24,000 bases of DNA, taken from Pseudomonadales bacterium (GTDB lineage Bacteria; Pseudomonadota; Gammaproteobacteria; Pseudomonadales; Pseudohongiellaceae). The stretch spans positions 79,219 to 103,218 of the forward strand of contig JACKOK010000005.1 in the NCBI GenBank assembly GCA_024234365.1, read 5' to 3'. A program made the translations under genes and the position numbers. Under the pieces are notes generated by a model, which saw only the letters and a list, made by a program, of their open reading frames with translations, was not told the origin of the DNA and searched no databases. This document shows positions 3,512-23,370 of the stretch, piece by piece. The number at the start of each line of letters is the position of its first letter. The stretch's first letter is position 1.

Positions 3512-4876
3512 TCAGAAAGCGCCTGCCGGCCCGGGAAAGACCACCGGGCTCTGCAGGCCATCTTCCGAGACGCTGGAGACGCCAAAGAAATAATTGTCGA
3601 TAACCACGTTCTCCAGCGTGAAACTGTCCACATTGCCCACGCTGCGCGAGTGTGTCCACTGTGCGTCCGTGGTCAAACGCCAGTGCACCCGATAGGCAGC
3701 GGCACCTGGCACTTTCTGCCAACTCAGTGTGGTGTCGGGGCTTACTTGACCACGAATGCTGACCTGGGTGGGCGGTGCGGGAGCCCAGGCCATGGAGGCG
3801 AGGGTAACGGCATTGAGCGCCGTCAACTTTGCCGCATAGTCGAAGTCCACATGTTCGATGACATCGCCATAGGCAATTCCGTTTTCCACCCGCACGTCCT
3901 GATGCTGCCAGTGATAGTTCTCATTGGTCTCCATGATGCGTACCGCCGGCAACCCCACCTCATTGAAAGGGCGGTGGTGCCCACCGCGACCAAAGCGATC
4001 AAGGCGGTAGACCATCATCACATCGAGATTGGGGACGTAGAGATCCGCCATGGTGTCGATATAGCGTGCGAGATTGCGCGATGCCGAATCCAGTTCGCCG
4101 CCCTGAAAGCGCCGCTGTGTGGCCTCATCCTGCGTCTCCACATACCGGGTGCCTTCGGAGAACACGCGGGCGGTGCTGTTGTTCACCACGCCGTTGATGC
4201 CGCGGATATTGCCGATCATGTCGTTATTGACGACCGCCTGCAGATGCCAGCCCTGGGCCAACGCGTGGCGGGCCAGAATCTCGCCGCCATTGAGCCCCTG
4301 CTCCTCGCCGGAGAGACCGACATAGAGGATGGAACCGGGAAAGCGGTACTGCGACAGAACGCGGGCCGTTTCCAGCACTCCGGCCATGCCTGAGGCATTG
4401 TCGTTGGCGCCGGGGGAATCGCTGGTGAAATCCATCGGGTCGCTGACGCGGTTGTCGATGTCGCCGCTCATCATGACAAAACGATTGCTGTCCCGCGTGC
4501 CGCGCTGAATGGCGATGACGTTGACCACTTCCACTGGGTTGGGAATGCGGCTGGTGCCGGAGACCGTGTCGCTGACATACATCACCTCCAGGCATCCGCC
4601 GCAGGCACGGGATATGCGCTCGAACTCCGCGTGAACCCAGCGTCTTGCGGCACCGATGCCGCGCGTGTCGGACTCTGTCTCCGAGAGGGTGTGCCGGGTA
4701 CCGAAGTTCACCAGAGTTTCGATATCGCTCTGTATGCGTGCGGCAGAGGGGCTGATGCCGATGGTGTAGAGGGCTTGTTCGTCTGCCAGGCCGACACTGC
4801 TCAGCGTGGTCAAGACAAGGGTGGCGACAAGGGTCTTCGGAAGTCGTAAACGCTGGGCGTATGCAGTTCTGTTCAT
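3512..4876 (-). CDS. Secreted M28-family metallopeptidase (aminopeptidase-like) with a C-terminal fibronectin-III-like domain
   Basis: Taken from ORF 3512..4924. The start was moved to ATG 4876 (MNRTAYAQRLRLPKTLVATLVLTTLSSVGLA, signal-like). M28 marks are GANDNASGMAGVLE, LSGEEQGLNGG and VVNNDMIG. The C-terminal ~90 aa (VSPDTTLSWQKVPGAAAYRVHWR...) look FN3-like. The stop codon directly abuts the stop of the convergent gene. Confidence 0.75.
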   Translation of the reverse strand: MNRTAYAQRLRLPKTLVATLVLTTLSSVGLADEQALYTIGISPSAARIQSDIETLVNFGTRHTLSETESDTRGIGAARRWVHAEFERISRACGGCLEVMYVSDTVSGTSRIPNPVEVVNVIAIQRGTRDSNRFVMMSGDIDNRVSDPMDFTSDSPGANDNASGMAGVLETARVLSQYRFPGSILYVGLSGEEQGLNGGEILARHALAQGWHLQAVVNNDMIGNIRGINGVVNNSTARVFSEGTRYVETQDEATQRRFQGGELDSASRNLARYIDTMADLYVPNLDVMMVYRLDRFGRGGHHRPFNEVGLPAVRIMETNENYHWQHQDVRVENGIAYGDVIEHVDFDYAAKLTALNAVTLASMAWAPAPPTQVSIRGQVSPDTTLSWQKVPGAAAYRVHWRLTTDAQWTHSRSVGNVDSFTLENVVIDNYFFGVSSVSEDGLQSPVVFPGPAGAF

Positions 4877-4980
4877 GAAGGAGGCTCCGCGCCTGTGGCT
4901 GTGAAGGGGATGACAATGCGCCAACGTCCCCAGAGTACACAGGTGAGATCCGTTCTGGAATGCCTGGCGGAATATTGTGT

Positions 4981-10907: not shown

Positions 10908-11375
10908 TCAGGTAGCCACGCGGTTGGCTGCCACCTCTTCACGGCGGCGTTTGACCGCCATGGCTCGGGCCTTTTTGTCGCCGTATTTGTTGATGGAGAA
11001 GTAGGCATTGCGCTGCCGACGCTGCCCGCCAGCGTTTTCTTGCCAGGTAGCAACCCAGGCGTGGTCGCTTTCGGAGTAACTGACGCCGATTTCTCCAGAG
11101 GAATTAAGGGGAGAAACCTTGCGGGGGCTGAACTTGGTGTAGGGCCAGTGCTCCCCATAAATCTTGCGGCCTTCCTCGTCGCGCTTTTTCATGGCTGCCT
11201 TGATGGCATTGTCCTTGCCGCCGTATTTCTTGAAGGGGAAGGACTCCTGAAAGCTTTTTTCGTCGTATTTGATGCGCACCCATGCACAGTTGGTGCCGCG
11301 GGATTCGATGATGCTGATGTGGTGAAGTGGGTCCAGTTTTTTCACAAAAACCTCTCTGTCAACGCAAGAGCCCAT
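10908..11375 (-). CDS. DNA-binding protein with two AP2-like domains (phage or mobile-element type)
   Basis: There are two repeats of the AP2 pattern. The first is SRGTNCAWVRIKYDEKSFQESFPFKKYGGKDNAIKAAMKKRDEEG. The second is SGEIGVSYSESDHAWVATWQENAGGQRRQRNAYFSINKYGDKKARAMAVKRRREE. An alternative start is GTG 11345, which has GAGAGG and a 5-nt spacer and gives a stronger RBS than ATG 11375. Confidence 0.65.
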   Translation of the reverse strand: MGSCVDREVFVKKLDPLHHISIIESRGTNCAWVRIKYDEKSFQESFPFKKYGGKDNAIKAAMKKRDEEGRKIYGEHWPYTKFSPRKVSPLNSSGEIGVSYSESDHAWVATWQENAGGQRRQRNAYFSINKYGDKKARAMAVKRRREEVAANRVAT

Positions 11376-11680: not shown

Positions 11681-12198
11681 TGCTGATAGTGTTTCTGATC
11701 CTGGCAGAGGTCGGGGTAGCGCCTCTGAGCGGTGCCCGTCCGGGTAGGACCGGCTCGTAGATCAGTTTTTACTCCTTCTGGAAGTGAGAACGGGATTGTC
11801 GCCGTTTTCTTACCCCGCGAACCGTAAAAATTGTTTTGCGATCCCTGCACGAAGCCGGGACAGATCCAGTCTGGAATCCTCACACTTAACCCACGCTGAA
11901 CCGGTGAGTTCGTGCGGGCCGAATCTGCCCTCTTGATTGGGCGCACATTATCCAGCTTTCCTGCGCATCTTAATAGTGTCTGAGGGGTAGAAAATGGGTG
12001 GATTTGCGGGATTTTGACGGTTTTTGAGCGGCAAGTGACTGTCGTCACTCCGCCAGGAGCTGTTGAGGCGGCGGTGAAAGGGCGGGGGCGGGGTGTTGCG
12101 GGTGTATTTTGTGGGCTGCTGGCTTAGAATTCCGGGCGTGTTTTTGCCGCCATACAGGGCGTTTCTTCCAGGTGGACGGGGTCTGCCGGTCGGTCTTC

Positions 12199-12921
12199 AT
12201 GAAAAAAATCAGCATCATCATTCCGGTCCTGCATGAAGTGCAGGCCCTGCGTCAGCATTTGCCGGCCTTGCAGGCCCTGCGGAGCCATGGATATGAGCTT
12301 CTGGTGGTGGATGGCGGGGGCGACGAAGATAGCCGCCAGGCCTGTGTGGGTCTGGTAGACAGATGGGTGTCGAGCCCTGTCGGGCGGGCAGCGCAGATGA
12401 ATGCCGGGGCTCAGCAGGCGAGCGGCGAGTTGCTACTGTTTCTGCACATAGACACGGTATTGCCGGAAACGGCGGAGTCCCTGTTGAATGGAGTGCTGGC
12501 TGATCCGCGCGTGCTCTGGGGGCGTTTTGATGTGCGTCTGAGCGGGCAGCACCGGGTGTTCCGTATGATCGAGACACTGATGAACTGGCGCTCCAGGCTG
12601 ACGGGGGTCGCAACGGGGGATCAGGCGATTTTCGTGCGCAGTACGGCCTTTGTGCGTGCGGGGGGCTTTCCGGCAATTCCGCTGATGGAGGATATTGCCC
12701 TCAGCAAAACCTTGCGCCACCTGGCCTGGCCACTGTGCCTGAGGTCGCGGGTGATCACCTCCAGCCGTCGTTGGGAGCGCCATGGCGTGTGGCGCACGAT
12801 CCTCCTGATGTGGAAGCTGCGGCTGTTGTATGTGTTGGGGGTGGCCCCGGCGACCCTGCATGCCATGTACACGAAAAAGCCCATGCAAGAAATTGAAAAG
12901 CAAGGAAAAAAAGATGTTTGA
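12199..12921 (+). CDS. Family-2 glycosyltransferase (resembles the TIGR04283-type that pairs with DUF2064)
   Basis: Taken from ORF 12109..12921. The start was moved to ATG 12199 (MKKISIIIPVLHEVQAL..., the typical GT2 beginning). Other marks are ELLVVDGGGDEDS, GRAAQMNAGA, LLFLHIDT, TGDQAIFV and PLMEDIALS. Confidence 0.8.
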   Translation: MKKISIIIPVLHEVQALRQHLPALQALRSHGYELLVVDGGGDEDSRQACVGLVDRWVSSPVGRAAQMNAGAQQASGELLLFLHIDTVLPETAESLLNGVLADPRVLWGRFDVRLSGQHRVFRMIETLMNWRSRLTGVATGDQAIFVRSTAFVRAGGFPAIPLMEDIALSKTLRHLAWPLCLRSRVITSSRRWERHGVWRTILLMWKLRLLYVLGVAPATLHAMYTKKPMQEIEKQGKKDV

Positions 12922-13558
12922 ATTTCCTCGCGCCCGCCTGGCGCTGTTTACCCGTGCCCCCGTGGCAGGGCGGGTCAAGACACGCATGCACGGCCGCTTG
13001 GGCGAGCAGGGGGCGTTGGCCTTGCACAAGGCCTTGATTGAACACATGGTGGACAAGACTGTGCGAGCATCCCTGTGCCCTGTGCAGCTTTGGGTTGCGG
13101 CTGATTCTGACGAGACTTTTCCTCATGAATATTTTTTAACCCTATGTAATAAAAAAGGAATTTATCGTCAGGAGGGGGGCGACCTGGGGGCGCGTATGCG
13201 TCACACGGTGCAAACACAGCTGATGCATGCCGACTATGTGCTGATTGTCGGCACAGACTGTGCGTCCGTGGACGAAGGCTATCTGCGCGCAGCTCTGCGC
13301 CTGCTGGCCGCAGGTGAAAACATCGTGATCGGGCCTGCCGAGGATGGCGGCTATGTGCTGCTCGGGCTGCGTATGACGCCGGATGCCTTGTTCGAAGGGG
13401 TGCCCTGGGGCAGTGAGCGGGTGATGGCCGTGACGCGGAGCAATCTGCGTGCAGCGGGGCTGAGCTGGCAGGAATTGCCCATGCGCTGGGATGTGGATAC
13501 ACCACAGGATCTGGGGCGTCTGGAAACGCTTGATCCTCCAATAAAAATAATGGAATAA
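12914..13558 (+). CDS. DUF2064-family (TIGR04282-like) glycosyltransferase-fold protein
   Basis: ATG 12914 overlaps the upstream stop by 8 nt (ATGTTTGA). Recognised marks are LALFTRAPVAGRVKTRM, GGDLGARM, IVGTDCASV, IGPAEDGGYVLLGL, VPWGSERV and WDVDTPQDL. Confidence 0.75.
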   Translation: MFEFPRARLALFTRAPVAGRVKTRMHGRLGEQGALALHKALIEHMVDKTVRASLCPVQLWVAADSDETFPHEYFLTLCNKKGIYRQEGGDLGARMRHTVQTQLMHADYVLIVGTDCASVDEGYLRAALRLLAAGENIVIGPAEDGGYVLLGLRMTPDALFEGVPWGSERVMAVTRSNLRAAGLSWQELPMRWDVDTPQDLGRLETLDPPIKIME

Positions 13559-13588: not shown

Positions 13589-14302
13589 TTAGACGAGCTC
13601 TTCCCGCTGCAGGAAGGTCACAAAGCGGTTGACGACCTGCTGGGTGGCGCGGGGGAGGTCAATGAAACGGCAGCCGCACATGGTCTGATTGCGTTCCTTG
13701 CTGTACTGGTAATAGATGATTTCGAGCCGGCAGTCCAGGGTCTGATCCTGGGATGGAATCTCGATCAGGGCATTGAATGTTTCCATCGGCTCAAACTCGG
13801 GTGTCACCTCTCCCGGAAAACCCACGCGGATGCCGGTGGCGGAAATATTGAGCACACGCCCGAACAGCTCCTGCTCCCGGCTCTGCGAGCTGTAGCGCGC
13901 AGTGGTTTTCATGCTGCCGGGCACATAGGCGCGGAAGGCCTCACGGCGCTGCATGTACAACATCTTTGCCGGGAAGGGAATCTGGTAATACAGCCCGTCC
14001 GGGCTGTCGATGGTGCGGGCACAGACCAGATCCTTGGCATGCACCTTGATGCCATGAATGCTCGCACGGATGCCGAATGTGGTGCGTGCCTCGATCTTGC
14101 GGTGGCCATCGCGGGGCGTCACTTCGTCCATGAGGAAATAACGTTCCTGCAGATTGGCGTCGAGAATCATGGTGTTGTACAGCTGAGCGCTGTCGTCAAA
14201 CTGCACGTTCACAAGGCTGCGTTCATTCTGCAGGGCGCGCAGTACACTGAAGATGTCGCCTGCGCCGTAGTAGTATCGGTCTGATCCGTCGTTGAATGCC
14301 AT
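13589..14302 (-). CDS. ycgR: Flagellar brake protein, YcgR/FlgZ type (PilZN + PilZ c-di-GMP receptor)
   Basis: Taken from ORF 13589..14386. The start was placed at ATG 14302, 19 nt after the flgN stop; the longer forms would overlap flgN. The PilZ signatures are present as QRREAFR (RRxxxR) and NISATG ((D/N)xSxxG). The position after flgM-flgN matches the flgMNZ arrangement described in Pseudomonas. Confidence 0.8.
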   Translation of the reverse strand: MAFNDGSDRYYYGAGDIFSVLRALQNERSLVNVQFDDSAQLYNTMILDANLQERYFLMDEVTPRDGHRKIEARTTFGIRASIHGIKVHAKDLVCARTIDSPDGLYYQIPFPAKMLYMQRREAFRAYVPGSMKTTARYSSQSREQELFGRVLNISATGIRVGFPGEVTPEFEPMETFNALIEIPSQDQTLDCRLEIIYYQYSKERNQTMCGCRFIDLPRATQQVVNRFVTFLQREELV

Positions 14303-14321
14303 TGTCGTTCTTGTTCTGGTG

Positions 14322-14780
14322 TCAGGCCCTGGCGATAGCTCGTGTATCGGAAGTCGTACTGGCATCGCCGCGTTGGTCGTAGACACCGGGCTGGGACGTT
14401 TTGCCTTGCAGGATGTCCAGCAGATGACGATTGTTCAGTTTACTTCGATGCACAATCGCACCATTGATATTGCTCAAGTCCGTGCAGTGCTGCAGGCTTG
14501 TGAGCAGTTTCTGATAGAGCTCGCCCAAACCCTCCTGCTGGCAGTAGTCACGAAGCCCGTTATTGTCTGCGCACTTGCGTAAAGATGCCAGCAGTTTCCG
14601 CCTTGCATCGTCATTGGCTTCGATTTGTGCCAGCAGTTGCGCCTTGTCGATCAAGGTCTGGCTCAATGCGCCGATATCCCGGCTTTCCAGCTGGTGGCGC
14701 TCGCTGCGCAACAGGTTTTCCAGCTGCGAGGCATTGTACAGGTCCTGCTCCAGCAGGGCTTGCATGGAGGCGTTGCTCAT
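14322..14780 (-). CDS. flgN: Flagellar export chaperone FlgN
   Basis: ATG 14780 is preceded by AGGAGAG. The protein is 152 aa, helical and Leu/Gln-rich (MSNASMQALLEQDLYNASQLENLLRSERHQLESRD...). It sits directly downstream of flgM. Confidence 0.8.
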   Translation of the reverse strand: MSNASMQALLEQDLYNASQLENLLRSERHQLESRDIGALSQTLIDKAQLLAQIEANDDARRKLLASLRKCADNNGLRDYCQQEGLGELYQKLLTSLQHCTDLSNINGAIVHRSKLNNRHLLDILQGKTSQPGVYDQRGDASTTSDTRAIARA

Positions 14781-14892
14781 GGAGTCTCTCCTGGGCAACC
14801 GTGGGGTTGCCGGCCAATGAAAACATACGATGCCCGCCACACAAGAGGAGGGCGGGTCGCATCAGGCAGAATCGATGGAGTCTGCTGCGTAC

Positions 14893-15210
14893 TTACAGGT
14901 CGCTTTCGAAGCCGAGAATTTTCTCGGCCAAACGTTCGACATTGACCTGGTATTGGCCGTTGGCAATCTGATTGCGGAGTTCGGTCACACGCCCCTTGTC
15001 CACATCGGGAAGTTGGCTGATATGCGCCTCAAGACCCTGCAGGTCGACAGCCTGTGAACTGATGTGCACGGTATCCTGCGCCGCAGACCTGCCGGATTTC
15101 TGCGCCTGCGCCTGGCTGATGGAAACGGGGCTGACGCCACTCGCGCCACTGCTGCGCTGCTGCTCGCTCGGTGTTTGCGTGGCATTGCTGCCAATAGTGC
15201 TAACAGTCAT
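14893..15210 (-). CDS. flgM: Anti-sigma-28 factor FlgM
   Basis: The protein is 105 aa. It has a Ser/Gln-rich disordered N-terminus and the conserved C-terminal block VDKGRVTELRNQIANGQYQVNVERLAEKIL. It lies between flgA and flgN. Confidence 0.88.
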   Translation of the reverse strand: MTVSTIGSNATQTPSEQQRSSGASGVSPVSISQAQAQKSGRSAAQDTVHISSQAVDLQGLEAHISQLPDVDKGRVTELRNQIANGQYQVNVERLAEKILGFESDL

Positions 15211-15301
15211 GACTTCTACCTTGATTGACAGGGTGTAGCTAAGACCCGGTGCCCCCGGATAAGCCGGAGGAGTGCCACAATCTTAATTACTCTCCCTGAT
15301 G

Positions 15302-15328
15302 TTGGCGACCAATTACTGAAAAACTTTA
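15302..15328 (-). promoter_or_regulatory. Candidate sigma28 (FliA) promoter for flgM-flgN-ycgR
   Basis: The minus strand reads TAAAGTTT (15328-15321), 11 nt, then GTCGCCAA (15309-15302). Against the consensus TAAAGTTT-N11-GCCGATAA this is 8/8 for the -35 element and 5/8 for the -10 element. It lies in the flgA-flgM intergenic region. Confidence 0.45.
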
Positions 15329-15348
15329 GAAAAATTTCGCACTTCCCG

Positions 15349-16110
15349 TCAGAAACCGACACTGGCTTCGCCCTGGCCGGTGACAACGGCCTGCACGACC
15401 ATATCGGAGTTCGTGTTACGGACATTGATGCGTTTACCGAGTTCGCCGCCCTGCAGGGCCACGCCTTGCTGACGAATCTCCACAGAACCTGCTTTTGCGC
15501 TCAGGGTGACGGTATCGCCCCGCTTCACCAGCATGGGGGCGGCAAGGGCTTCCTGTGCCACCGTTGCCCCAGCTGGCAGCGGGCGTCGTACCTCCATGCC
15601 CACGGCGAGTTCGCTGGCCTGCAGATAGCTGCCCCGCAGCAGGGAGATATCGCTTTGCTCAAGGCTCAGGTCTGCCGGGCTGAGGACTTCTCCCCGCGCG
15701 ATTGGCCGGGTGGTAACCAGTACCGGCTCAAAAATTTTCACCATTACCGGAACGTATTTGCTCCACGGCGCCGTTCCGACACATTCCACCTTGACGTTGA
15801 TGCGTCCCTGCGGGCGCTGATTCTGGTTAAGTGAGGCAATCAGGGGTTGCTCACACAGGGCCAGTGGCAGGCGAGGGTCAATGCGGCTGATCTCGATTTC
15901 CACCCGGCGGCTCAATGCCTTGTCTGTATGCTGCTCCCTGGCTGCCAGCTCCTGCGGGCTGAAGAAGGCGCTGACAAACTCGTTCACTGCTGCGGTCAAC
16001 TGCTCATGCGCGCTCAGCTGTTGTGCCTGTGCCGGCGCACACAGTATGGCCAGCATCAGGCCGATGCTGCGCTTACCGTGAGACGCGTGTTGGCGAATCC
16101 TGTCTGTCAT
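15349..16110 (-). CDS. flgA: Flagellar basal-body P-ring formation chaperone FlgA
   Basis: The protein is 253 aa. It has a signal-like N-terminus (SIGLMLAILCAPAQAQQ) and a C-terminal SAF-like segment (VKRGDTVTLSAKAGSVEIRQQGVALQGGELGKRINVRN). It is divergent from flgB. Confidence 0.85.
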   Translation of the reverse strand: MTDRIRQHASHGKRSIGLMLAILCAPAQAQQLSAHEQLTAAVNEFVSAFFSPQELAAREQHTDKALSRRVEIEISRIDPRLPLALCEQPLIASLNQNQRPQGRINVKVECVGTAPWSKYVPVMVKIFEPVLVTTRPIARGEVLSPADLSLEQSDISLLRGSYLQASELAVGMEVRRPLPAGATVAQEALAAPMLVKRGDTVTLSAKAGSVEIRQQGVALQGGELGKRINVRNTNSDMVVQAVVTGQGEASVGF

Positions 16111-16553: not shown

Positions 16554-16970
16554 ATGGCAATCAGTTTCTCTCAGGCTCTTGGGGTACATGAACAGGCGCT
16601 GCTGTTACGCGGTCAGCGTTCGCAGATTCTGGCCACCAATATCGCCAATGCCGATACCCCCGGCTACAAGGCACGGGATTTTGACTTTGCTGCCGTGCTG
16701 AAGCATCGCATGGGCATGGCGCAGGACGAAATTGCTCTGAACACCACCCGCCCCGGCCACATCGGTGACAACACGGTTGCCGGTAGTGGCGCGGTGTCAG
16801 AAGACAATCTGCTTTACCGCATTCCGCTGCAGCCTTCTCTGGACGGTAATACCGTGGATGAACAGTTCGAAAACGCCAATTTTGCCCGCAATGCCCTGGA
16901 GCACCAGGCGAGCTTCCAGTTTCTCAACGGGAAGTTCGCGGGAATCATGAAAGCCCTGCGCGGAGAGTGA
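16554..16970 (+). CDS. flgB: Flagellar basal-body rod protein FlgB
   Basis: The protein is 138 aa. It carries the ILATNIANADTPGYKARD N-terminal rod motif and is first in the flgBCDEFGH order. Confidence 0.9.
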   Translation: MAISFSQALGVHEQALLLRGQRSQILATNIANADTPGYKARDFDFAAVLKHRMGMAQDEIALNTTRPGHIGDNTVAGSGAVSEDNLLYRIPLQPSLDGNTVDEQFENANFARNALEHQASFQFLNGKFAGIMKALRGE

Positions 16971-16972
16971 TG

Positions 16973-17422
16973 ATGAGCCTGATGTCCATTTTTGATATTT
17001 CCGGTTCCGCCATGAGTGCCCAGAGCGTGCGGCTGAACACGACTGCCAGCAATATGGCCAATGCCAATAGCGCGGCAGGAAGCCCGGATGAACTCTACCG
17101 CGCCCGTCAGCCGGTGTTTGCCACGGTGCGTGCCGGGCTGCTGAACCAGGCCAATGCCGATGCCTTCGGATTTGGTGGAGACGACAGTGTCGGGCAGGGC
17201 GTGCGGGTGACAGATATTGTGGAGTCCACGGCACCTTTTCAGCAGCGCTATGAGCCGGGCCATCCCCTGGCGGATGCCGAGGGGTATGTGTACTACCCGA
17301 ACGTGAATATCGTGGATGAGATGACGAACATGATTTCCTCCTCTCGTTCCTACCAGATGAATGTCGATGTGATGAATGCCGCGCGCACGATGATGCAGCG
17401 TGTGCTGTCACTGGGCCAGTAA
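16973..17422 (+). CDS. flgC: Flagellar basal-body rod protein FlgC
   Basis: MSLMSIFDISGSAMSAQSVRLNTTASNMANANS is a typical FlgC N-terminus, and the C-terminus is MISSSRSYQMNVDVMNAARTMMQRVLSLG. GGAGAG (16962-16967) gives a 5-nt spacer to ATG 16973. GTG 16967 and ATG 16970 are in-frame alternatives. Confidence 0.9.
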   Translation: MSLMSIFDISGSAMSAQSVRLNTTASNMANANSAAGSPDELYRARQPVFATVRAGLLNQANADAFGFGGDDSVGQGVRVTDIVESTAPFQQRYEPGHPLADAEGYVYYPNVNIVDEMTNMISSSRSYQMNVDVMNAARTMMQRVLSLGQ

Positions 17423-17462
17423 GCAGAATTGGAGATCAACGCAGTGTCATCAGGAGACGCTC

Positions 17463-18155
17463 ATGAGTGAAGTAACAAGCAATCAGAACGCCCTGAACAG
17501 GGTACTGGCGGATTACTCGCTGACCCGCCAGCAGCAGGAACCCCAGAAAAACAATGATCTGGGACGTAACGAATTCCTGCGTCTGCTGGTGGCGCAACTG
17601 GAAAACCAGGACCCGACCAAGCCCCAGGACAACGGCGAGTTCGTGGCTCAACTGGCACAGTTCTCCTCGCTGGAAGAGGCCCAGAAGATGAGCGCGAGTT
17701 TTGAGAGCTTCAGCTCCGCCTTCCAGTCTTCCCAGCATCTGCAAGCAACGTCCCTGGTGGGGCGCCCCGTGCATGTGGAGACGGACACCACGGCGTTGCT
17801 GGAAACCGGCGGCATCAGCGTGATTGCCGATCTGCCGCGCAGCACCGAGTTCGCTCAGCTCAGTGTGTACAACCAGTCCGGTGCGCTGGTGGAGAGTTTC
17901 AATCTGGGGCCACAGAGCGAAGGTCGCAACGAATTCATCTGGACGGGTTACGATGCCAACGATCAGCGTTTTCCCTCGGACGAGTACACCTTCCGCGTCA
18001 GCATTCCGGATGCCAGCGGTGATGGGGCAGAACAGGTAACAACCTACCTGAGCGCCAACGTCAACAGCGTCACCATTGAGCCGGGAGGTGGTTTGACACT
18101 GAACCTGGCGGGTGTGGGCCCGACACCGTTGTCCGAGGTTATCCAGATCAACTGA
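17463..18155 (+). CDS. flgD: Flagellar hook assembly (capping) protein FlgD
   Basis: ATG 17463 follows AGGAG (17452-17456). It carries the conserved block FLRLLVAQLENQDPTKPQDNGEFVAQLAQFSSLE. The protein is 230 aa. Confidence 0.9.
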   Translation: MSEVTSNQNALNRVLADYSLTRQQQEPQKNNDLGRNEFLRLLVAQLENQDPTKPQDNGEFVAQLAQFSSLEEAQKMSASFESFSSAFQSSQHLQATSLVGRPVHVETDTTALLETGGISVIADLPRSTEFAQLSVYNQSGALVESFNLGPQSEGRNEFIWTGYDANDQRFPSDEYTFRVSIPDASGDGAEQVTTYLSANVNSVTIEPGGGLTLNLAGVGPTPLSEVIQIN

Positions 18156-18219: not shown

Positions 18220-21200
18220 ATGAGTTTTAACATCGGTTTGAGCGCACTGGCCGCAGCACAGGAAGAGATTGCTGTCACCGGTAACAATATCGCCAACGCC
18301 AGCACCAATGGCTTCAAATCTTCGCGTACCGAATTTGCGGACGTGTTTGCCGCGTCCGTGCTCGGTGGTGGGGCAAGTCAGACCGGTGGCGGTGTCGGCG
18401 TGCAGGCGATTTCGCAAAACTTTTCCCAAGGCAATATTACCTTTACCGACAACACGCTGGACCTGGCGATCAACGGCAACGGTTTCTTTATCCTGCGCGG
18501 TGAGGACGGCAATGTGTTTACCCGGGCGGGCTCTTTCGGCACCGATCGTAATGGCAATATCGTCAACAGCCTCGGCGAGAAGCTGCAGGGTTTTGCGGCA
18601 ACACCGGACGGCAAGGCATCTGGTGGTGGTCCGTTGACCGATCTGGTGGTGACCACGGGGGAGATTCCCCCTCAGGCAACGACGCTGGTCAGCAGCCGCA
18701 TCAACCTCGATGCCACCGCTTCGCCTTCTTCCATCATTGGCACCAAGGTTCTGTCGAACAGCGGCCAGTCAGGCGTTCCCCAGTTCGGTACCCGCGTGGC
18801 ACGCCCCGCTGTCGTATCAGGAACCATCAGCACGGCAGGCACGGATTTCTCCGGCACCACCTCGGCCCGCACCGTGGGCACCTCCAACGTGTCCGGTGGC
18901 ATTAATTTTACGGCAGGAACCGGTGCCCAGAGTTTTTCCATCAGCGTCAACGGTGGTCCCTTTCAGTCCATTGATCTTTCTGCGGTAAACGCGGCAGACG
19001 GCACAGCGGTGGTGGCCGCGGTGAATGCAGCCCTGGCGGGGGCCGGTTTCACCGGCGCCAATGCCATCGATGTATCACTGGAGAACAATCGTCTGGTGCT
19101 GCAAACCACCGCAACAGGGGATTCGTCCCGTATTACCATCAGCGCGGTGCAGGGCCTGGCCTCCAATATCGTCAGCGCGACAGACGTCAAGGGCAAGACC
19201 GCACCGCCCACGGGCTTCACGATTACGCTGGACGGGGTTTCCCGCAATATTGTCATCGACAAGAATTTCACCAATACCGGGGCGGCAGCACTGGCGCTGG
19301 GGGGCGGTTCGGGCTCCGGTAATGAGGCGCTGGAAGACTATATCCAGTCCCAGATCAACACCAGTGCCGCGCTGCTGGGCAAGGTCACGGTCTCCATCGA
19401 TGCCAATGGCGCCATTCTCTTTGAGACCACGTCACAGACGGCCCAGACCTTGACGGTCAATCCGCTCAACTCCGTCAGTGGCGGCGTGAGCTTCGATCAG
19501 GTGGTGAGTTTTGCCACCACGAGACGAACCGGCACGCTGGATACCACGGACCTGGACTTCTCGACCGATAACACCAGCTTCACGATCACGGTAGATGGGC
19601 AGAGCCTGCAGATCACCCTCGCGGATGACTACAATGCTTCCGGTGGGCCGTCTTCCATTCTCGGTGAATTTGCCGAGTCCGGTCTGGAGGCGCTGGAAGA
19701 CGAGATTCAGAAACAGATCAATGCTTCCACTCTGCCGGGAGCCGTGAATGTCTCCGTCGGTTCCGATGGTCGCATCGTTTTCGAGATTACCGACTCGGAT
19801 TACAAGTCCCTGAAAGTGGCGAGTGACAGCAAGCCCGCCCAGATACAGGGGGCGGTGAATGTCAGCAGTGGTTATGACTTCAGTGCCGACAATTACACCT
19901 TCACCATCACCTACGAAGACGCAACGCTGGGCACGGTGACCTCCAACGCCATTACCCTGGACCAGAAGTACGACACCGGGCAGGAAGTCATCGACGCTTT
20001 GCAGAATGAAATCAATACCGACACCAATTTTGCCTTCCCCCTGGGCAAGGAACAGGTTCGTGCCCGTCTGGACTCCGCGACCGGTCAGGTCATCATCGAG
20101 ACGGTGGATACCGGCCCTTCGTCGGAATTGAACGTGGCGGTAACGGCGCCGGGGGCTGGTCCTTATGTCATCGGTAATCCGGGAGCACCGGTCAACGGCC
20201 AGGGCCCGGAGCTGGATTTCGCGAGCATCGTGACCTTCAACGGCAGCGAATTGAGCAATACCGGTGCCGCCGCAGTTGGCAATGGGTATGCCGCTGAAAC
20301 CATTCAGGTGACGGATGGTTCGGGAACCAAACAACTGGTCACGGTTGCCGCGGGTTCCACTGCCGCGCAGGTGGCCCAGCAGTTCTCCAACGTGCCGGGT
20401 ATCACCGCCACCGCCAGCACCGTGGCCTATATCGTGGCCACCAATACCGGTGACCCGGAGAACAAGGGGGCAGGCAGCAGCGGTGTCATCCCCAACCTGC
20501 CACTGAACTTCACCATCAACGGCAGCGAGTTTGAGACCCCTTTGTCAGACCCTAACGACCGTCTGCAGGATCTGGTGAACCAGATCAATGGCTCCACCGG
20601 CAATCTCAGTGCCCGTCTTGTGACCCTGGATTCGGGAACACAATTGCTGGAGGTCACCGAGAACAACGGTGCCAACCTGGTATTTACCGGCGGGGCGAAC
20701 GGCAAGGGTGCCATCACCATCGGTGCTTCCACCCGCGACCCGGTCAGCGGCGAACTGGTCTATGACGATTCGGTAGCCACGAAGCAGATCGCCAACCTCG
20801 CCAACCTGAGCAATGACGGCGTGGTTGTCGGGGGGGTGGTGGAGTTCACGCTCGATGAGAACGTGGTGATGGTGGATGCTGCCAAATCCCCAAGCGGCGT
20901 GGATATTCTGCCCGTGAATAACAGTATCTTCGGCAATATCAGCGATTCCGATGCGCTGGTGGGGACGCAGTTCGAACTGAACACCTTTGACCCGCTGAAC
21001 CCGGAAACCTATTACCGATCCACCGCCGTGGCGATTTTCGATACGGTCGGTATTCAACATACCCTGACGCAGTATTTCGTCAAGGAGCGTGCAAATGGGG
21101 CGGGAGATGTTGGTGGCGTCTGGAGCGTGTATTTCCAGATCGACGGCAAGGATATCGGCTACGATCCGGGCGGTCTGGACACCACGCCAGTGCTTGCCAA

Positions 21201-21789
21201 GGCGACCGTTCGCTTCAATGAGGCCGGTTTATATGACCAGACTCAGGACCCGATCTACGTCACCAACTGGACTCCGCTGGACAGTGCCGGCAAGCCCTCC
21301 GGTGCCGGGCCTGTTCCGGGCAACACCACGGTGGCGGAGTTGACCACCAACTCCAACTTCCGCATCGACCTGACCAAGATGACTCAATACGGCGGTGATT
21401 TCTCGGTGTTGTCCAACACCCAGAACGGTTTCGCCAAGGGGCAGTTGACCGGTCTGGATATCAATGACCGTGGCGCTATCTTCGCCCGTTTCTCCAATGG
21501 CCAGTCAACCATTCTGGGTGAGGTGGCGCTGGCCAAGTTTGATGATCAGTCCAAGCTCGCCAATGCCGGTGGCACGCGCTTCTCGGAAACCTCGGCTTCG
21601 GGTACCGGCACACCCAGTGGCGCAGGCACGGCAGGTCTGGGCGTGATTCAGTCGGGTGCACTGGAGGATTCCAACGTGGATCTGTCCGAACAACTGGTGC
21701 AATTGATCGTCTCGCAGCGCAACTTCCAGGCGGCGGCACAGATCATCGAATCCGCAGACACCGCCACACAGACCATTATCAATCTGTAA
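18220..21789 (+). CDS. flgE: Flagellar hook protein FlgE, giant form (1189 aa) with a ~750-aa central repeat-containing insertion
   Basis: The N-terminus is MSFNIGLSALAAAQEEIAVTGNNIANASTNGFK ... LAINGNGFF. The canonical D2/D1 part resumes at FDPLNPETYYRSTAVAIFDTVGIQHTLTQYFVKE (aa 923 onward). The C-terminus is LEDSNVDLSEQLVQLIVSQRNFQAAAQIIESADTATQTIINL. The gene sits in the flgD-flgE-flgF position. Residues ~168-915 have no counterpart in ordinary ~400-460-aa hook proteins. Confidence 0.9.
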   Translation: MSFNIGLSALAAAQEEIAVTGNNIANASTNGFKSSRTEFADVFAASVLGGGASQTGGGVGVQAISQNFSQGNITFTDNTLDLAINGNGFFILRGEDGNVFTRAGSFGTDRNGNIVNSLGEKLQGFAATPDGKASGGGPLTDLVVTTGEIPPQATTLVSSRINLDATASPSSIIGTKVLSNSGQSGVPQFGTRVARPAVVSGTISTAGTDFSGTTSARTVGTSNVSGGINFTAGTGAQSFSISVNGGPFQSIDLSAVNAADGTAVVAAVNAALAGAGFTGANAIDVSLENNRLVLQTTATGDSSRITISAVQGLASNIVSATDVKGKTAPPTGFTITLDGVSRNIVIDKNFTNTGAAALALGGGSGSGNEALEDYIQSQINTSAALLGKVTVSIDANGAILFETTSQTAQTLTVNPLNSVSGGVSFDQVVSFATTRRTGTLDTTDLDFSTDNTSFTITVDGQSLQITLADDYNASGGPSSILGEFAESGLEALEDEIQKQINASTLPGAVNVSVGSDGRIVFEITDSDYKSLKVASDSKPAQIQGAVNVSSGYDFSADNYTFTITYEDATLGTVTSNAITLDQKYDTGQEVIDALQNEINTDTNFAFPLGKEQVRARLDSATGQVIIETVDTGPSSELNVAVTAPGAGPYVIGNPGAPVNGQGPELDFASIVTFNGSELSNTGAAAVGNGYAAETIQVTDGSGTKQLVTVAAGSTAAQVAQQFSNVPGITATASTVAYIVATNTGDPENKGAGSSGVIPNLPLNFTINGSEFETPLSDPNDRLQDLVNQINGSTGNLSARLVTLDSGTQLLEVTENNGANLVFTGGANGKGAITIGASTRDPVSGELVYDDSVATKQIANLANLSNDGVVVGGVVEFTLDENVVMVDAAKSPSGVDILPVNNSIFGNISDSDALVGTQFELNTFDPLNPETYYRSTAVAIFDTVGIQHTLTQYFVKERANGAGDVGGVWSVYFQIDGKDIGYDPGGLDTTPVLAKATVRFNEAGLYDQTQDPIYVTNWTPLDSAGKPSGAGPVPGNTTVAELTTNSNFRIDLTKMTQYGGDFSVLSNTQNGFAKGQLTGLDINDRGAIFARFSNGQSTILGEVALAKFDDQSKLANAGGTRFSETSASGTGTPSGAGTAGLGVIQSGALEDSNVDLSEQLVQLIVSQRNFQAAAQIIESADTATQTIINL

Positions 21790-21829: not shown

Positions 21830-22570
21830 ATGGACAAGGCGCTTTATGTCGGCATGAATGCCGCGTCGCAGAACATGCTGGCGCAGGCCGTGAATGCCAA
21901 CAATCTGGCCAATGCGAGCACGACCGGTTTCCGTTCGGACTTCTCGCAGGCGCTGGCCTTGCAAGTGCAGGGGGACGGCTATCTGTCCCGTGCCTACAAC
22001 CAGTCCGAGACGCCGGCTTCCGATTTTGCACAGGGGCCGCTGCGACAGACTGGTAACGATATGGATATCGCCATTCAGGGCGAGGGCTGGATCAGCGTTG
22101 TCGCCCGCGATGGTTCCGAGGCCTATAGCCGTGCCGGCGAGCTGACACTCAGCCCCCTGGGGGAACTGATGACTGCCGATGGCCTGCCGGTGCTGGGCAA
22201 CGCAGGGCCGATTGCGCTGCCTCCCTTTGAGAAACTGGAAATCGGCAATGACGGCACGCTGTCCATTCGTGAACTGGGGCAGGGGCCACAGGTCATGTCG
22301 GTGCTGGATCGCATCAAACTGGTAAACCCGAATACCCAGGATCTGGTGAAGGGGGCAGATGGCCTGTTTCGTCGCCGTGATGGTGCCGAGGAGATTGCCG
22401 ATGGCAATGTGCGTGTTGCTGCCGGTTATCTGGAAGGCAGCAATGTCAATGTCGTAGACGCGATGGTGGAAATGATTGCTCTGACCCGTAACTACGAACT
22501 CAATATCAAACTGATGCAGACAGCGGAACGAAATTCCGAGGCCGCGGCCACTCTGCTGAGAATTCAATAA
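21830..22570 (+). CDS. flgF: Flagellar basal-body rod protein FlgF
   Basis: The protein is 246 aa. The N-terminus is MDKALYVGMNAASQNMLAQAVNANNLANASTTGFR and the C-terminus is LEGSNVNVVDAMVEMIALTRNYELNIKLMQTAE. Confidence 0.9.
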   Translation: MDKALYVGMNAASQNMLAQAVNANNLANASTTGFRSDFSQALALQVQGDGYLSRAYNQSETPASDFAQGPLRQTGNDMDIAIQGEGWISVVARDGSEAYSRAGELTLSPLGELMTADGLPVLGNAGPIALPPFEKLEIGNDGTLSIRELGQGPQVMSVLDRIKLVNPNTQDLVKGADGLFRRRDGAEEIADGNVRVAAGYLEGSNVNVVDAMVEMIALTRNYELNIKLMQTAERNSEAAATLLRIQ

Positions 22571-22584
22571 GCAAGGATCACATC

Positions 22585-23370
22585 ATGCATCCCGCTCTCT
22601 ATGTCTCCAAAACCGGGCTCAGTGCCCAGGACAAACAGCTCACGAGCCTGTCGAACAACCTCTCCAACGTGGCCACCACCGGCTTCAAACGTGATCGCGT
22701 GGTGTTTCAGGACCTGCTGTACCAGATTTATCGTCAGCCGGGTGGCAACTCTACCCAGGACACGCTGCTGCCCTCCGGTATGCAGATGGGGACCGGGGTG
22801 CGCACGGTGGGCACACAGAAGGTGTTCTCCCAGGGCGCATTGCAGACCACGGAAGAAACGCTGGACGTGGCCATTAATGGCCGCGGCTTTTTCCAGATCA
22901 CCATGCCCGATGGCACGGCGGCCTACACCCGTGATGGTCAGTTCCAGCTCAGTGCGGAAGGGCAACTGGTGACGACTGACGGACTGATTGTGGCGCCGGG
23001 CATCAGCATTCCCATCAATGCCAGTACAGTGACCATTGGTACCGATGGCACCGTGACGGCGGTGGTGGCAGGCGAAACCGCATCCACCCAGGTGGGCAAC
23101 CTGACCCTGGTGGATTTCGTGAACCCATCCGGTCTGCAGGCCATGGGGGGCAATCTGTTCCGCGAAACGGTTGCCAGTGGCAGCCCGCAGGAATCCACCC
23201 CCGGCACCAATGGCCTGGGCTCTCTGGAGCAGGGCTTGCTGGAAAACTCCAACGTGGACGTGGTGGAGGAGCTGGTCAATATGATTACCACCCAGCGTGC
23301 CTACGAGATGAACTCCCGCGTGATCTCCACAGCGGATCAGATGCTGCAGTTCATCAGCCAGAATCTGTAA
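22585..23370 (+). CDS. flgG: Flagellar basal-body distal rod protein FlgG
   Basis: The protein is 261 aa. Marks are LYVSKTGLSAQDKQLTSLSNNLSNVATTGFKRDR, AINGRGFFQI and LENSNVDVVEELVNMITTQRAYEMNSRVISTADQML. AAGGA lies 7 nt upstream of the ATG. Confidence 0.92.
   Translation: MHPALYVSKTGLSAQDKQLTSLSNNLSNVATTGFKRDRVVFQDLLYQIYRQPGGNSTQDTLLPSGMQMGTGVRTVGTQKVFSQGALQTTEETLDVAINGRGFFQITMPDGTAAYTRDGQFQLSAEGQLVTTDGLIVAPGISIPINASTVTIGTDGTVTAVVAGETASTQVGNLTLVDFVNPSGLQAMGGNLFRETVASGSPQESTPGTNGLGSLEQGLLENSNVDVVEELVNMITTQRAYEMNSRVISTADQMLQFISQNL

What the first reader, a model, noticed from the sequence alone, without database searches (positions are those of the whole stretch)
18220..21789. Giant flagellar hook protein: ~750-aa insertion of tandem IN-motif-like modules inside FlgE
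The N-terminal ~165 aa and C-terminal ~275 aa together make a complete ordinary hook protein; E. coli and Pseudomonas FlgE are about 400-460 aa (established knowledge). Between SRINLDA (aa ~160-166) and FDPLNPETY (aa 923) lie ~750 extra residues, about nt 18720-20965. This is the position where the outermost hook domain emerges. The insert is not low-complexity filler. It contains at least five diverged tandem modules, each starting with a [ST]F[ST]I[ST]x[DN]G strand, starting at: SFSISVNG (aa 238, nt 18931), GFTITLDG (aa 332, nt 19213), SFTITVDG (aa 453, nt 19576), TFTITYED (aa 560, nt 19897) and NFTINGSE (aa 763, nt 20506). Each then has a helix with a conserved I-N dipeptide (VAAVNAAL, YIQSQINTS, EIQKQINAS, LQNEINTD, LVNQINGS) and a V-V...DG-I-FE strand pair. 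A sixth, shorter unit may lie at aa ~693-745. The period is 94-121 aa. Duplication is still visible in the DNA: the 15-mer GAGGCGCTGGAAGAC occurs at 19324 and 19687, 363 nt (121 codons) apart and in frame. From memory this resembles the 'flagellin hook IN motif' module. I see no Cys anywhere in the 1189 aa. By inference, the hook would be decorated with a thick outer layer of repeated domains. This is analogous in principle to the enlarged Campylobacter/Helicobacter hooks and to giant flagellins of some marine gammaproteobacteria, but here it is built from a tandem array. Whether this architecture is already described I cannot tell without a database search.
Basis: partly seen in the sequence, partly recalled or inferred. 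Interest (0 to 1): 0.7.

Follow-up and report, generated by a model that had tools for sequence, protein, structure and literature searches.

The report
Giant flagellar hook protein with domain array
This gene is a real flagellar hook gene almost three times the usual size, because about 750 extra residues forming six small repeated surface domains sit inside it; the neighbouring junction, filament and cap proteins are enlarged with related domains, so the whole external flagellum is probably coated.

Summary
The ORF at 18220-21789 is an intact flgE (1189 aa) sitting in order within flgBCDEFG. Cutting out aa 166-920 in silico leaves a 434-aa protein that matches the NCBIfam FlgE equivalog end to end and above its cut-off. 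The insert lies inside domain D2. AlphaFold2 predicts six beta-beta-alpha-beta-beta-beta modules plus two beta linker regions. Profile comparison shows that M1-M4 are homologous to each other. M6 is linked only weakly, and M5 only by predicted fold. Pfam Flagellin_IN is the consistent top hit but stays below threshold.

The insert is composite. M5, M6 and the tail are shared with the 678-687-aa FlgE of cultured Pseudohongiella and LSUCC0112. The block at aa 185-685 is additional. It has a colinear counterpart, demonstrated from about aa 474, in the 1210-1213-aa FlgE of cultured Oceanospirillaceae.

FlgK (1346 aa), flagellin (1248 aa) and FliD (1409 aa) are also giant in this clade and carry related modules. 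FlgL and the rod proteins are normal in size.

The shared 15-mer reflects conserved EALED codons, not a recent duplication. The insert is under purifying selection, and the gene is not an assembly artefact.

The most likely role is a structural outer coat of the hook. I found no published description. Verdict: a new variant of a known kind.

The parts
18220..21789 (+). flgE CDS, 1189 aa, giant hook protein
   Evidence: It is 100% identical to P0001.
18220..18714 (+). N-terminal core, aa 1-165: D0, Dc, the N-terminal half of D1 and the first strand of D2, ending in SRINLDA
   Evidence: Pfam Flg_bb_rod at aa 4-33 and D1 at 83-137. It is 66% identical to P. spirulinae FlgE over aa 1-184.
18715..20979 (+). 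Whole insert, aa 166-920, about 755 aa, an excursion from D2
   Evidence: No Pfam or PDB sequence match. Excising it restores a full-length FlgE equivalog match.
18772..20274 (+). Block at aa 185-685, absent from the 678-687-aa FlgE of Pseudohongiella and LSUCC0112. It contains an N-terminal beta linker, M1-M4 and a Gly/Pro-rich linker.
   Evidence: Pairwise alignment. The colinear counterpart in T. marinus and B. pacificum FlgE is demonstrated only from about aa 474-578 onward.
18931..19143 (+). Module M1, aa 238-308 (SFSISVNG...)
   Evidence: AF2 order bb-a-bbb. hhalign 94-95% to M3 and M4. Pfam Flagellin_IN at 13.9 bits covering profile 1-54 of 55. 40% identity to FlgK aa 987-1084.
19210..19464 (+). 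Module M2, aa 331-415 (GFTITLDG...EALEDYIQSQIN)
   Evidence: hhalign 99.8% to M3. AF2. Related to the L003 flagellin at aa 538-610.
19573..19824 (+). Module M3, aa 452-535 (SFTITVDG...EALEDEIQKQIN)
19894..20148 (+). Module M4, aa 559-643 (TFTITYED...LQNEIN)
   Evidence: hhalign 93-95.5% to M1-M3. AF2.
20296..20445 (+). Module M5, aa 693-742, a shorter bb-a-b unit shared with Pseudohongiella FlgE
   Evidence: AF2. Alignment to P. spirulinae FlgE. No sequence similarity to M1-M4.
20503..20688 (+). Module M6, aa 762-823 (NFTINGSE...LVNQIN), shared with Pseudohongiella FlgE
   Evidence: AF2 order bb-a-bbb. hhalign 55% to M3. The equivalent unit in T. marinus FlgE scores 16.7 bits for Flagellin_IN.
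20710..20964 (+). Beta-rich tail of the insert, aa 831-915, returning to D2
   Evidence: AF2 strands between aa 831 and 886. Conserved in P. spirulinae, T. marinus and B. pacificum.
20980..21789 (+). C-terminal core, aa 921-1189: the rest of D2, the C-terminal half of D1 and the D0 helix
   Evidence: Pfam FlgE_D2 at aa 921-1071 and Flg_bbr_C at 1144-1189. PDB FlgE matches over aa 921-1189.
16554..18155 (+). flgB, flgC and flgD upstream in the same operon, all of normal size
21830..23370 (+). flgF and flgG downstream, both of normal size
14322..16110 (-). flgN, flgM and flgA, transcribed divergently

Best explanation
Shown: this is the operon-encoded hook gene flgE of an uncultured marine gammaproteobacterium that NCBI labels Pseudomonadales or Pseudohongiellaceae. 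Domain D2 carries an excursion of about 755 residues. The excursion is predicted to fold into six small beta-beta-alpha-beta-beta-beta modules of the flagellin/hook IN-motif type, plus two beta linker regions. Four modules (M1-M4) are demonstrably homologous to each other. The insert is composite, conserved and under purifying selection. Related modules occur in the equally enlarged FlgK, flagellin and FliD of the same lineage.

Inferred: FlgE is exported and polymerises normally through its D0, Dc, D1 and D2 core. The module array ends up on the outside of every subunit and forms a thick outer coat on the hook. Contacts between arrays of neighbouring subunits would stiffen or stabilise the universal joint. 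They would also match the hook's outer radius to that of the bulky junction and filament, as part of an enlargement of all solvent-exposed axial proteins. This is the same logic as domains D3 and D4 of the Campylobacter hook and the outer-domain sheaths of flagellins.
For: - Identity: Pfam and NCBIfam FlgE matches. The excised protein passes the FlgE equivalog cut-off end to end. The operon order is flgBCD-E-FG.
- Fold: the AF2 model has pLDDT 70-90 across aa 190-915 and shows six modules of identical order. The single-module model has pTM 0.70.
- Repeat homology.
- Outer-domain character: Foldseek on the full model hits C. jejuni FlgE (5az4 at 4e-14, and 5jxl), P. aeruginosa FliC D2/D3 (8erm, 4e-7, TM 0.58), H. 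pylori FliD and H. pylori FlaA. The profile search of 1.8 billion proteins found distant relatives of M2/M3 mainly in flagellins and FliD.
- Coordinated enlargement: FlgK is 1346 aa in the same locus. A sister genome has FlgE 1191, FlgK 1347, FliC 1248 and FliD 1409 aa, but FlgL only 414. Pseudohongiella spirulinae has 687, 893, 701 and 939 aa. LSUCC0112 has 678, 891, 697/699 and 934 aa. T. marinus has 1210, 993, 1255 and 1315 aa.
- Shared modules: FlgE M1 is 40% identical to FlgK aa 987-1084. FlgE aa 510-594 is 37% identical to FliD. FlgE aa 231-359 is 28% identical to FliC.
- Constraint: dN/dS is 0.08-0.18 in the insert against 0.03-0.08 in the core. The length stays at 1177-1206 aa in 46 homologues that are 47-85% identical to the window across the insert.
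- Precedents from papers: the extra domains of C. jejuni FlgE stabilise the hook (PMC5097172, abstract). R. sphaeroides FlgK1 is 1363 aa with at least three IN motifs, gives a bulky junction, and deletions within it impair swimming (PMC7277832). Giant flagellins give filaments of at least 30 nm (PMC6248924).
Against: - No structure or micrograph of any of these hooks exists, so the coat and its mechanical role are inferred.
- The pTM of 0.52 means the arrangement of the modules relative to each other is uncertain.
- No inter-subunit model was made.
- One genome (L011) combines a 1195-aa FlgE with a flagellin of only 718 aa, so radius matching with the filament is not obligatory.
- Pfam Flagellin_IN is sub-threshold in every FlgE module.
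- The single-module model has no significant PDB match; the best is a cyanophage sheath domain at E about 0.01.
- A second, ordinary flgE elsewhere in the genome was not excluded.
Confidence: 0.6

Rival explanations
1. The module array mainly serves a second, non-mechanical function at the flagellar surface. Examples are adhesion to particles, oil droplets or algal surfaces, or display of O-linked glycans on a Ser/Thr-rich scaffold.
For: - The protein is rich in Thr (127), Ser (111), Asn (86) and Gly (140).
- The carriers are marine bacteria. According to Thomson et al., many Oceanospirillales, the order that includes the cultured carriers, consume hydrocarbons (PMC6248924).
- The same paper raises a possible second function for the giant flagellins.
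- The same modules coat the hook, junction, filament and cap.
Against: - No adhesin, lectin or enzyme family matches the insert in Pfam, NCBIfam or PDB.
- The hook is a tiny fraction of the flagellar surface, so an adhesive role would not obviously require modifying FlgE.
- The adjacent GT2 and DUF2064 genes are separated from the flg operon by other genes, and nothing here ties them to the flagellum.
Confidence: 0.2
2. The coat is protective. It would shield the conserved core of the hook and filament from flagellotropic phages, proteases or grazers.
For: Every solvent-exposed axial protein is covered, but not the largely buried FlgL or the periplasmic rod proteins.
Against: - dN/dS of 0.08-0.18 and fixed length indicate conservation rather than the diversifying selection expected of a phage or immune interface.
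- There was no hypervariability among the 46 homologues.
Confidence: 0.1
3. The long gene is not the working hook subunit. It would be a paralogue, a pseudogene-like expansion or an assembly artefact, with a normal FlgE elsewhere building the hook.
For: Some bacteria do carry two flgE-like genes; C. jejuni is reported to have a 58-kDa and a 92-kDa one (PMC5069557). I could not scan the whole genome.
Against: - The gene sits in the canonical slot between flgD and flgF in every locus examined.
- The reading frame is intact and under purifying selection.
- The identical sequence occurs in independent assemblies.
- There is no DNA repeat that could cause mis-assembly, and GC content equals that of the flanks.
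- In C. jejuni it is the long protein that builds the hook.
Confidence: 0.04

Closest known systems
Campylobacter jejuni FlgE (865 aa, domains D3 and D4) and Helicobacter pylori FlgE
   Same: - Both are hook proteins enlarged by extra outer domains inserted in D2.
- They are the best Foldseek matches of the full model: 5az4 at 4e-14 and 5jxl at 1.4e-12.
- The extra domains are reported to add stability to the hook (PMC5097172).
   Different: - The window's FlgE is 1189 aa, against 865 aa for a protein described as 'one of the longest' hook proteins (PMC5069557).
- The extra mass here is a tandem array of six small alpha/beta modules, not two large beta domains.
- The TIGR02489 flgE_epsilon model is not met: 135 bits against a cut-off of 412.85.
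- There is no sequence similarity within the insert.
Giant flagellins of Oceanospirillales (Thomson et al. 2018, PMC6248924)
   Same: - Both are marine gammaproteobacterial axial proteins of more than 1000 aa.
- Both grew by internal duplication of outer-domain units.
- Giant flagellins are encoded beside giant FlgE genes.
- FlgE modules are related to flagellin modules.
   Different: - That work concerns flagellin only.
- It explicitly leaves open whether other flagellar components are correspondingly large.
- Here the enlarged protein is the hook subunit, which has to remain a flexible universal joint.
Rhodobacter sphaeroides FlgK1 (1363 aa; at least three Flagellin_IN motifs and internal repeats; bulky hook-associated region)
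   Same: - It is an axial protein enlarged by IN-motif repeats that appear to come from internal duplication, and deletions within it impair swimming (PMC7277832).
- The FlgK next to this flgE is 1346 aa and contains related modules.
   Different: - It is a junction protein, not the hook subunit.
- R. sphaeroides FlgE1 itself is only 423 aa.
Pfam PF07196 Flagellin_IN (flagellin hook IN motif)
   Same: - It is the top Pfam family for isolated modules.
- The match to M1 covers nearly the whole profile.
- The I-N dipeptide in the helix is present in M2, M3, M4 and M6.
- The flagellin of the sister genome passes the threshold with 7 stretches. My FlgE-module HMM and the Pfam model place the domain start within a residue or two of each other there.
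   Different: - Every FlgE module is below the gathering score of 22.7 bits; the window's best is 13.9 bits.
- M5 has neither the motif nor any sequence similarity.
678-687-aa FlgE of cultured Pseudohongiella spirulinae and strain LSUCC0112
   Same: - These have the closest core sequence: 66% identity over aa 1-184 and 50% over aa 686-1189.
- They share the insertion site and the M5, M6 and tail part of the insert.
   Different: They lack the 500-aa block with M1-M4.
1210-1213-aa FlgE of cultured Thalassolituus marinus and Bacterioplanoides pacificum
   Same: - Their size is about the same.
- They have the same insertion site.
- They align colinearly over M3 or M4 through to the C-terminus at 31-33% identity.
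   Different: - They are much more divergent.
- Homology of the first half of the insert is not demonstrated.
- Their FlgK is 993 aa rather than 1346 aa.
- None of these proteins is described in the papers I could search.

Membership tests
FlgE (flagellar hook protein) | Match to a curated FlgE equivalog model above its cut-off | tested here: met
   The intact protein scores 392.5 bits against the 400-bit cut-off of NF004238, split into two stretches. With aa 166-920 excised it scores 414.6 bits in one stretch covering profile 1-413 of 414.
FlgE (flagellar hook protein) | Domain set: Flg_bb_rod, D1, FlgE_D2 and Flg_bbr_C | tested here: met
   All four are above their Pfam gathering scores.
FlgE (flagellar hook protein) | Position between flgD and flgF in the flgB operon | tested here: met
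   The order is the same in L003, L011, L012 and L013.
FlgE (flagellar hook protein) | The protein is the subunit found in the assembled hook | not testable with these tools
   This needs proteomics or EM of purified hook-basal bodies.
Pfam PF07196 Flagellin_IN | Score at or above the gathering threshold of 22.7 bits | tested here: not met
   The whole protein has no hit at E<=1. Of the M2/M3 segments, 1 of 20 hits at E 0.069. Of the M1/M4/M5/M6 segments, 8 of 40 hit, with best E 9e-4. The window's M1 scores 13.9 bits.
Pfam PF07196 Flagellin_IN | Conserved I-N dipeptide in the central helix | tested here: met
   It can be read directly in QSQINTS (M2), QKQINAS (M3), QNEINTD (M4) and VNQINGS (M6). 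M1 has VN, and M5 lacks it. The helices are placed by AF2.
Pfam PF07196 Flagellin_IN | Same domain as bona fide Flagellin_IN units in flagellins, FliD or FlgK | tested here: inconclusive
   The M2/M3 HMM hits the L003 flagellin at aa 647-696, where Pfam places Flagellin_IN at aa 659-699, giving the same inferred domain start. Distant profile hits are flagellins and FliD. No profile-profile comparison with the Pfam model itself was possible.
Tandem repeat array of homologous domains | Significant mutual similarity of the units | tested here: met
   M1-M4 give hhalign probabilities of 93-99.8%, apart from M1-M2 at 65%. M2-M3 gives BLASTP E 1.5e-16.
Tandem repeat array of homologous domains | All six units belong to one family | tested here: inconclusive
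   M6 reaches 55% against M3 and M5 shows no signal. The only shared feature is the same predicted secondary-structure order.
Epsilonproteobacterial large FlgE (TIGR02489) | Score at or above 412.85 bits | tested here: not met
   It scores 135.1 bits, on the core only.
Oceanospirillales giant-flagellin 'domain extension' (DE) repeat | Match to the DE-region HMM of Thomson et al. | not tested
   That HMM is a supplementary file I did not retrieve. Only a general relation between FlgE modules and flagellin modules was shown.

The most novel reading that the evidence does not exclude
A single pool of IN-type modules has been shuffled among FlgE, FlgK, flagellin and FliD. As a result, in these marine gammaproteobacteria the whole external flagellum, from hook to cap, would wear one continuous, co-evolving modular coat. 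The hook version would show how a universal joint can stay flexible under about 80 kDa of extra mass per subunit. This would answer the question left open by the giant-flagellin work: whether other flagellar components are correspondingly large.
Probability: 0.4. Interest if true: 0.7.

Novelty: new variant of a known kind. Interest (0 to 1): 0.55.

Why it matters
Hook proteins with extra outer domains are known from Campylobacter and Helicobacter, and giant flagellins are known from Oceanospirillales. A 1.2-kDa-residue-scale hook subunit (1189 aa) built from a tandem array of IN-type modules is not described in the papers I could search. Neither is the finding that hook, junction, filament and cap are all enlarged with related modules.

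The hook must bend continuously while it transmits torque. How it does so under a coat that roughly triples the subunit mass is a concrete structural question. Culturable relatives with 1210-1213-aa FlgE exist (Thalassolituus marinus and Bacterioplanoides pacificum), so cryo-EM and genetics could address the question directly.

The size series of 678-687 aa, then 1177-1213 aa in FlgE, together with the gain or loss of exactly one module in FlgK, also gives a natural series for studying how axial proteins grow.

Tried and rejected
- Whole-protein self-BLAST found only the diagonal. The repeats needed segment-wise BLAST and family-profile hhalign.
- TRF found no DNA-level tandem repeat apart from a trivial 9-mer.
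- The 15-mer as a sign of recent duplication is rejected.
- Sequence searches of the insert and of the M2/M3 profile against PDB gave only chance-level hits.
- Foldseek of the single-module model against PDB gave nothing at E<=0.001.
- A homologue search with aa 686-920 returned almost nothing, not even the query's own protein. I attribute this to a limit of the word index, not to biology.
- The genome-contig scan with aa 185-685 found only 5 close loci, because it relies on exact peptide patterns.
- Foreign origin of the insert is rejected on composition: GC is 0.56-0.62 both inside and outside it.
- Assembly artefact is rejected.
- I did not equate Thalassolituus marinus with Oleibacter marinus. 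The latter is now T. maritimus.

Full report
**Observation.** The ORF at 18220-21789 (+) is intact. It encodes 1189 aa with no Cys and is rich in Gly, Ala, Thr, Ser and Asn. Pfam places Flg_bb_rod at aa 4-33, the FlgE/F/G D1 domain at 83-137, FlgE_D2 at 921-1071 and Flg_bbr_C at 1144-1189, with nothing between 166 and 920. NCBIfam's FlgE equivalog NF004238 matches in two pieces at 392.5 bits, just under its 400-bit cut-off. When I joined aa 1-165 to aa 921-1189, the 434-aa product matched that model in one stretch from end to end (1-434 against 1-413 of 414) at 414.6 bits. The gene lies between flgD and flgF in a flgBCDEFG operon, with flgA, flgM and flgN transcribed divergently upstream.

**Position of the insert.** The conserved sequence runs through SRINLDA and, in the comparison with Pseudohongiella, on to aa 184. 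It resumes at about aa 916-921, where Pfam's FlgE_D2 profile starts at its position 10. The P. aeruginosa D-II crystal chain aligns from its residue 24 to aa 921. The excursion therefore leaves D2 after its first strand and returns into D2. This is the topological position used for extra outer domains in C. jejuni FlgE, which is the best Foldseek match of the full model (5az4 at 4e-14, 5jxl at 1.4e-12).

**Anatomy of the insert.** An AlphaFold2 model built on 46 homologues has pLDDT mostly 70-90 from aa 190 to 915. The terminal D0 segments are low, as expected for a monomer, and pTM is 0.52. The model shows six units with the same order of elements, beta-beta-alpha-beta-beta-beta:
- M1, aa 238-308
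- M2, aa 331-415
- M3, aa 452-535
- M4, aa 559-643
- M5, aa 693-742 (shorter)
- M6, aa 762-823

Beta-rich stretches lie at aa 176-219 and 831-886. M2 modelled alone gives pTM 0.70.

At sequence level, M2 and M3 are 44% identical (E 1.5e-16). Family-profile comparisons give M2-M3 99.8%, M1-M3 94%, M1-M4 95%, M2-M4 95.5%, M3-M4 93% and M1-M2 65%. M6 reaches only 55% against M3, and M5 gives nothing. Four units are therefore demonstrably one family, and the other two are linked only by predicted fold. A short motif that precedes the units also recurs (..G..NVS.G..F..). It accounts for a 75% hhalign match between aa 211-232 and the end of M3.

**The 15-mer.** GAGGCGCTGGAAGAC does occur at 19324 and 19687. 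It encodes EALED, which is invariant in both modules across the family. In six relatives the two sites use different synonymous codons. Overall, M2 and M3 share 51% nucleotide identity with dS about 1.3. The duplication is as old as the family, and the identical 15-mer is coincident codon choice on a conserved peptide. TRF finds no DNA repeat, and GC is the same inside and outside the insert.

**Not an artefact.** The identical protein is recorded under three NCBI accessions and in an independent Logan assembly. Forty-six full-length homologues of 1177-1206 aa, 47-85% identical to the window in the insert, keep the architecture. Pairwise dN/dS among six loci is 0.08-0.18 in the insert against 0.03-0.08 in the core. 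dS is near saturation, so these values are approximate.

**What the modules are.** The insert has no sequence match in PDB, and the single-module model has no significant Foldseek match. The best is an outer domain of a cyanophage sheath protein at E about 0.01.

Apart from hook proteins, the full model matches P. aeruginosa FliC D2/D3 (8erm, 4e-7, TM 0.58 on the target), the P. aeruginosa filament, H. pylori FliD and H. pylori FlaA/FlaB. The tool does not report which query residues align. The match to a 199-residue outer-domain fragment is best explained by the insert.

An HMM of M2/M3 searched against 1.8 billion representative proteins found strong hits only in this family. Of the weaker hits I scanned (1e-12 to 3e-4), most are flagellins and FliD proteins, plus DUF1217 proteins and a few unrelated-looking proteins.

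Pfam Flagellin_IN is the most frequent family when isolated modules are scanned. It matches 8 of 40 segments, with a best E of 9e-4, and the window's M1 scores 13.9 bits over profile positions 1-54 of 55. No module reaches the 22.7-bit gathering score. On the giant flagellin of a sister genome, which does pass the threshold with seven stretches, Pfam's best stretch (aa 659-699, profile 14-55) and my module HMM (aa 647-696, HMM 3-51) imply the same domain start. I conclude that the modules are divergent relatives of the IN-motif domain. They work like it and probably descend from it, but formal Pfam membership is not met.

**The insert is composite.** The FlgE of cultured Pseudohongiella spirulinae is 687 aa. 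It aligns with aa 1-184 (66% identity) and aa 686-1189 (50% identity) of the window's protein. M5, M6 and the beta tail are therefore shared, and aa 185-685 (M1-M4 plus linkers) are additional. Strain LSUCC0112 has a 678-aa FlgE.

Unexpectedly, cultured Oceanospirillaceae have giant hook proteins too: Bacterioplanoides pacificum at 1213 aa and Thalassolituus marinus at 1210 aa. These align colinearly with the window's protein from aa 474 or 578 to the end at 31-33% identity. By eye they contain six modules in the same order. The giant architecture is therefore either older than the Pseudohongiellaceae clade, with loss of M1-M4 in Pseudohongiella, or has moved between lineages. I cannot decide between these.

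**The surroundings change the picture.** The table gives protein lengths in aa.

| Genome or locus | FlgE | FlgK | FlgL | Flagellin | FliD |
|---|---|---|---|---|---|
| Window's own locus (L001) | 1189 | 1346 | — | — | — |
| Sister genome (L003; FlgE about 85% identical across the insert) | 1191 | 1347 | 414 | 1248 | 1409 (gene runs off the locus) |
| T. marinus (L013) | 1210 | 993 | 412 | 1255 | 1315 (gene runs off the locus) |
| P. spirulinae (L004) | 687 | 893 | 414 | 701 | 939 |
| LSUCC0112 (L010) | 678 | 891 | 414 | 697, 699 | 934 |
| L011 (GCA_040384045.1) | 1195 | 1224 | 414 | 718 | 1293 |

In the sister genome the rod proteins and FlgD are of ordinary size. All solvent-exposed axial proteins therefore scale together, while the rod proteins and FlgL do not. 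L011 is an exception, because it combines a giant FlgE with a mid-sized flagellin.

The modules are related across these proteins. FlgE M1 is 40% identical over 105 columns to FlgK aa 987-1084. FlgE aa 510-594 is 37% identical to FliD aa 299-380. FlgE aa 231-359 is 28% identical to flagellin aa 640-764. These E-values, 2e-7 to 3e-5, apply to a four-protein search space. The flagellin unit at aa 538-610 even shares the GGG.GSGN.AL motif of M2. FlgK occurs in a 1346-aa and a 1224-aa class, and the shorter class lacks exactly aa 981-1102, which is one linker plus one module.

**Mechanism.** What is shown: identity as FlgE, the insertion site, the modular fold prediction, the homology of M1-M4, conservation, and coordinated enlargement with shared modules.

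What is inferred: the array sits on the outside of each of the roughly 120 hook subunits (a number from general knowledge of Salmonella hooks) and forms a thick coat. Contacts within the coat would stabilise the joint, and the coat would give the hook an outer radius comparable with that of the bulky junction and filament.

From the added mass of about 78 kDa per subunit, and Salmonella-like helical parameters recalled from memory, I estimate a hook diameter of at least 25-30 nm. This is a rough calculation, not a result.

Published precedents support the logic:
- The extra domains of C. jejuni FlgE make the hook more robust (PMC5097172, abstract).
- The 1363-aa FlgK1 of R. sphaeroides, with at least three IN motifs, gives a bulky junction, and deletions within it impair swimming (PMC7277832).
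- Giant flagellins give filaments of at least 30 nm (PMC6248924).

Rival explanations are adhesion or glycan display, protection from phages or proteases, and the gene not being the real hook subunit. They are weighed in the rivals section. Purifying selection and constant length argue against an arms-race surface and against junk.

**Novelty.** C. jejuni FlgE, at 865 aa, is described as one of the longest hook proteins (PMC5069557). My searches of the held literature found no description of a hook protein above 1000 aa or of IN-type arrays in FlgE. The giant-flagellin paper asks explicitly whether other flagellar components are correspondingly large. Databases annotate these proteins only as 'flagellar hook-basal body complex protein' or FlgE. 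Enlarged hooks, giant flagellins and IN-repeat FlgK are all known, so I rate this a new variant of a known kind, of moderate to good interest. It is directly testable, because culturable relatives carry the same architecture.

Noticed in passing
L001:18275-22315 (just beyond the window's right end): The FlgK of the same operon is 1346 aa, about 1.5 times the 884-900-aa FlgK of Pseudohongiella. It contains several modules related to those of FlgE. A 1224-aa class in related genomes lacks exactly aa 981-1102, which is one linker plus one module.
   Followed up: partly
L003:15934-19680 and L003:21171-24044: A sister genome encodes a 1248-aa flagellin that passes Pfam Flagellin_IN with 7 stretches, and a FliD listed as 1409 aa whose gene runs off the end of the locus. 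FlgL is an ordinary 414 aa.
   Followed up: partly
L012:1094-4735 and L013:1092-4724: The cultured Oceanospirillaceae Bacterioplanoides pacificum and Thalassolituus marinus have FlgE of 1213 and 1210 aa, colinear with the window's protein. T. marinus is a congener of the giant-flagellin species Oleibacter marinus, now T. maritimus. Neither FlgE was picked up by the insert-based searches.
   Followed up: partly
L011:1506-5093 and L011:15541-17697: One genome combines a 1195-aa FlgE, a 1224-aa FlgK and a 1293-aa FliD with a flagellin of only 718 aa. Hook enlargement is therefore not strictly tied to a giant flagellin at that locus.
   Followed up: partly
window 13589-14386 (-): A YcgR-like flagellar brake protein (PilZN plus PilZ domains) lies directly next to flgN and flgM.
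   Followed up: no
window 12109-13558 (+): A glycosyltransferase family 2 gene is followed by an overlapping DUF2064 gene. From memory this is a recurrent gene pair. No link to the flagellum was shown.
   Followed up: no
window 10908-11375 (-): A 155-aa ORF with an AP2 DNA-binding domain sits between unannotated ORFs, in a gap between metabolic genes and flagellar genes.
   Followed up: no
window 437-3511 (+): A 1024-aa protein combines PD40/WD40-like beta-propeller repeats with a C-terminal amidohydrolase domain. An M28 peptidase gene follows on the opposite strand (3512-4924).
   Followed up: no
window 19324-19338 and 19687-19701: The acidic peptide EALED at the start of the module helix is invariant in both M2 and M3 across all sampled homologues, together with I46 and Q47 of the module alignment. 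Its role is unknown; metal binding or a contact site are possibilities.
   Followed up: no
L012:8555-8857 and L013:8308-8601: The Oceanospirillaceae loci carry a small gene of 97-100 aa with no Pfam match between flgI and flgJ. It is absent from the Pseudohongiellaceae-type loci.
   Followed up: no
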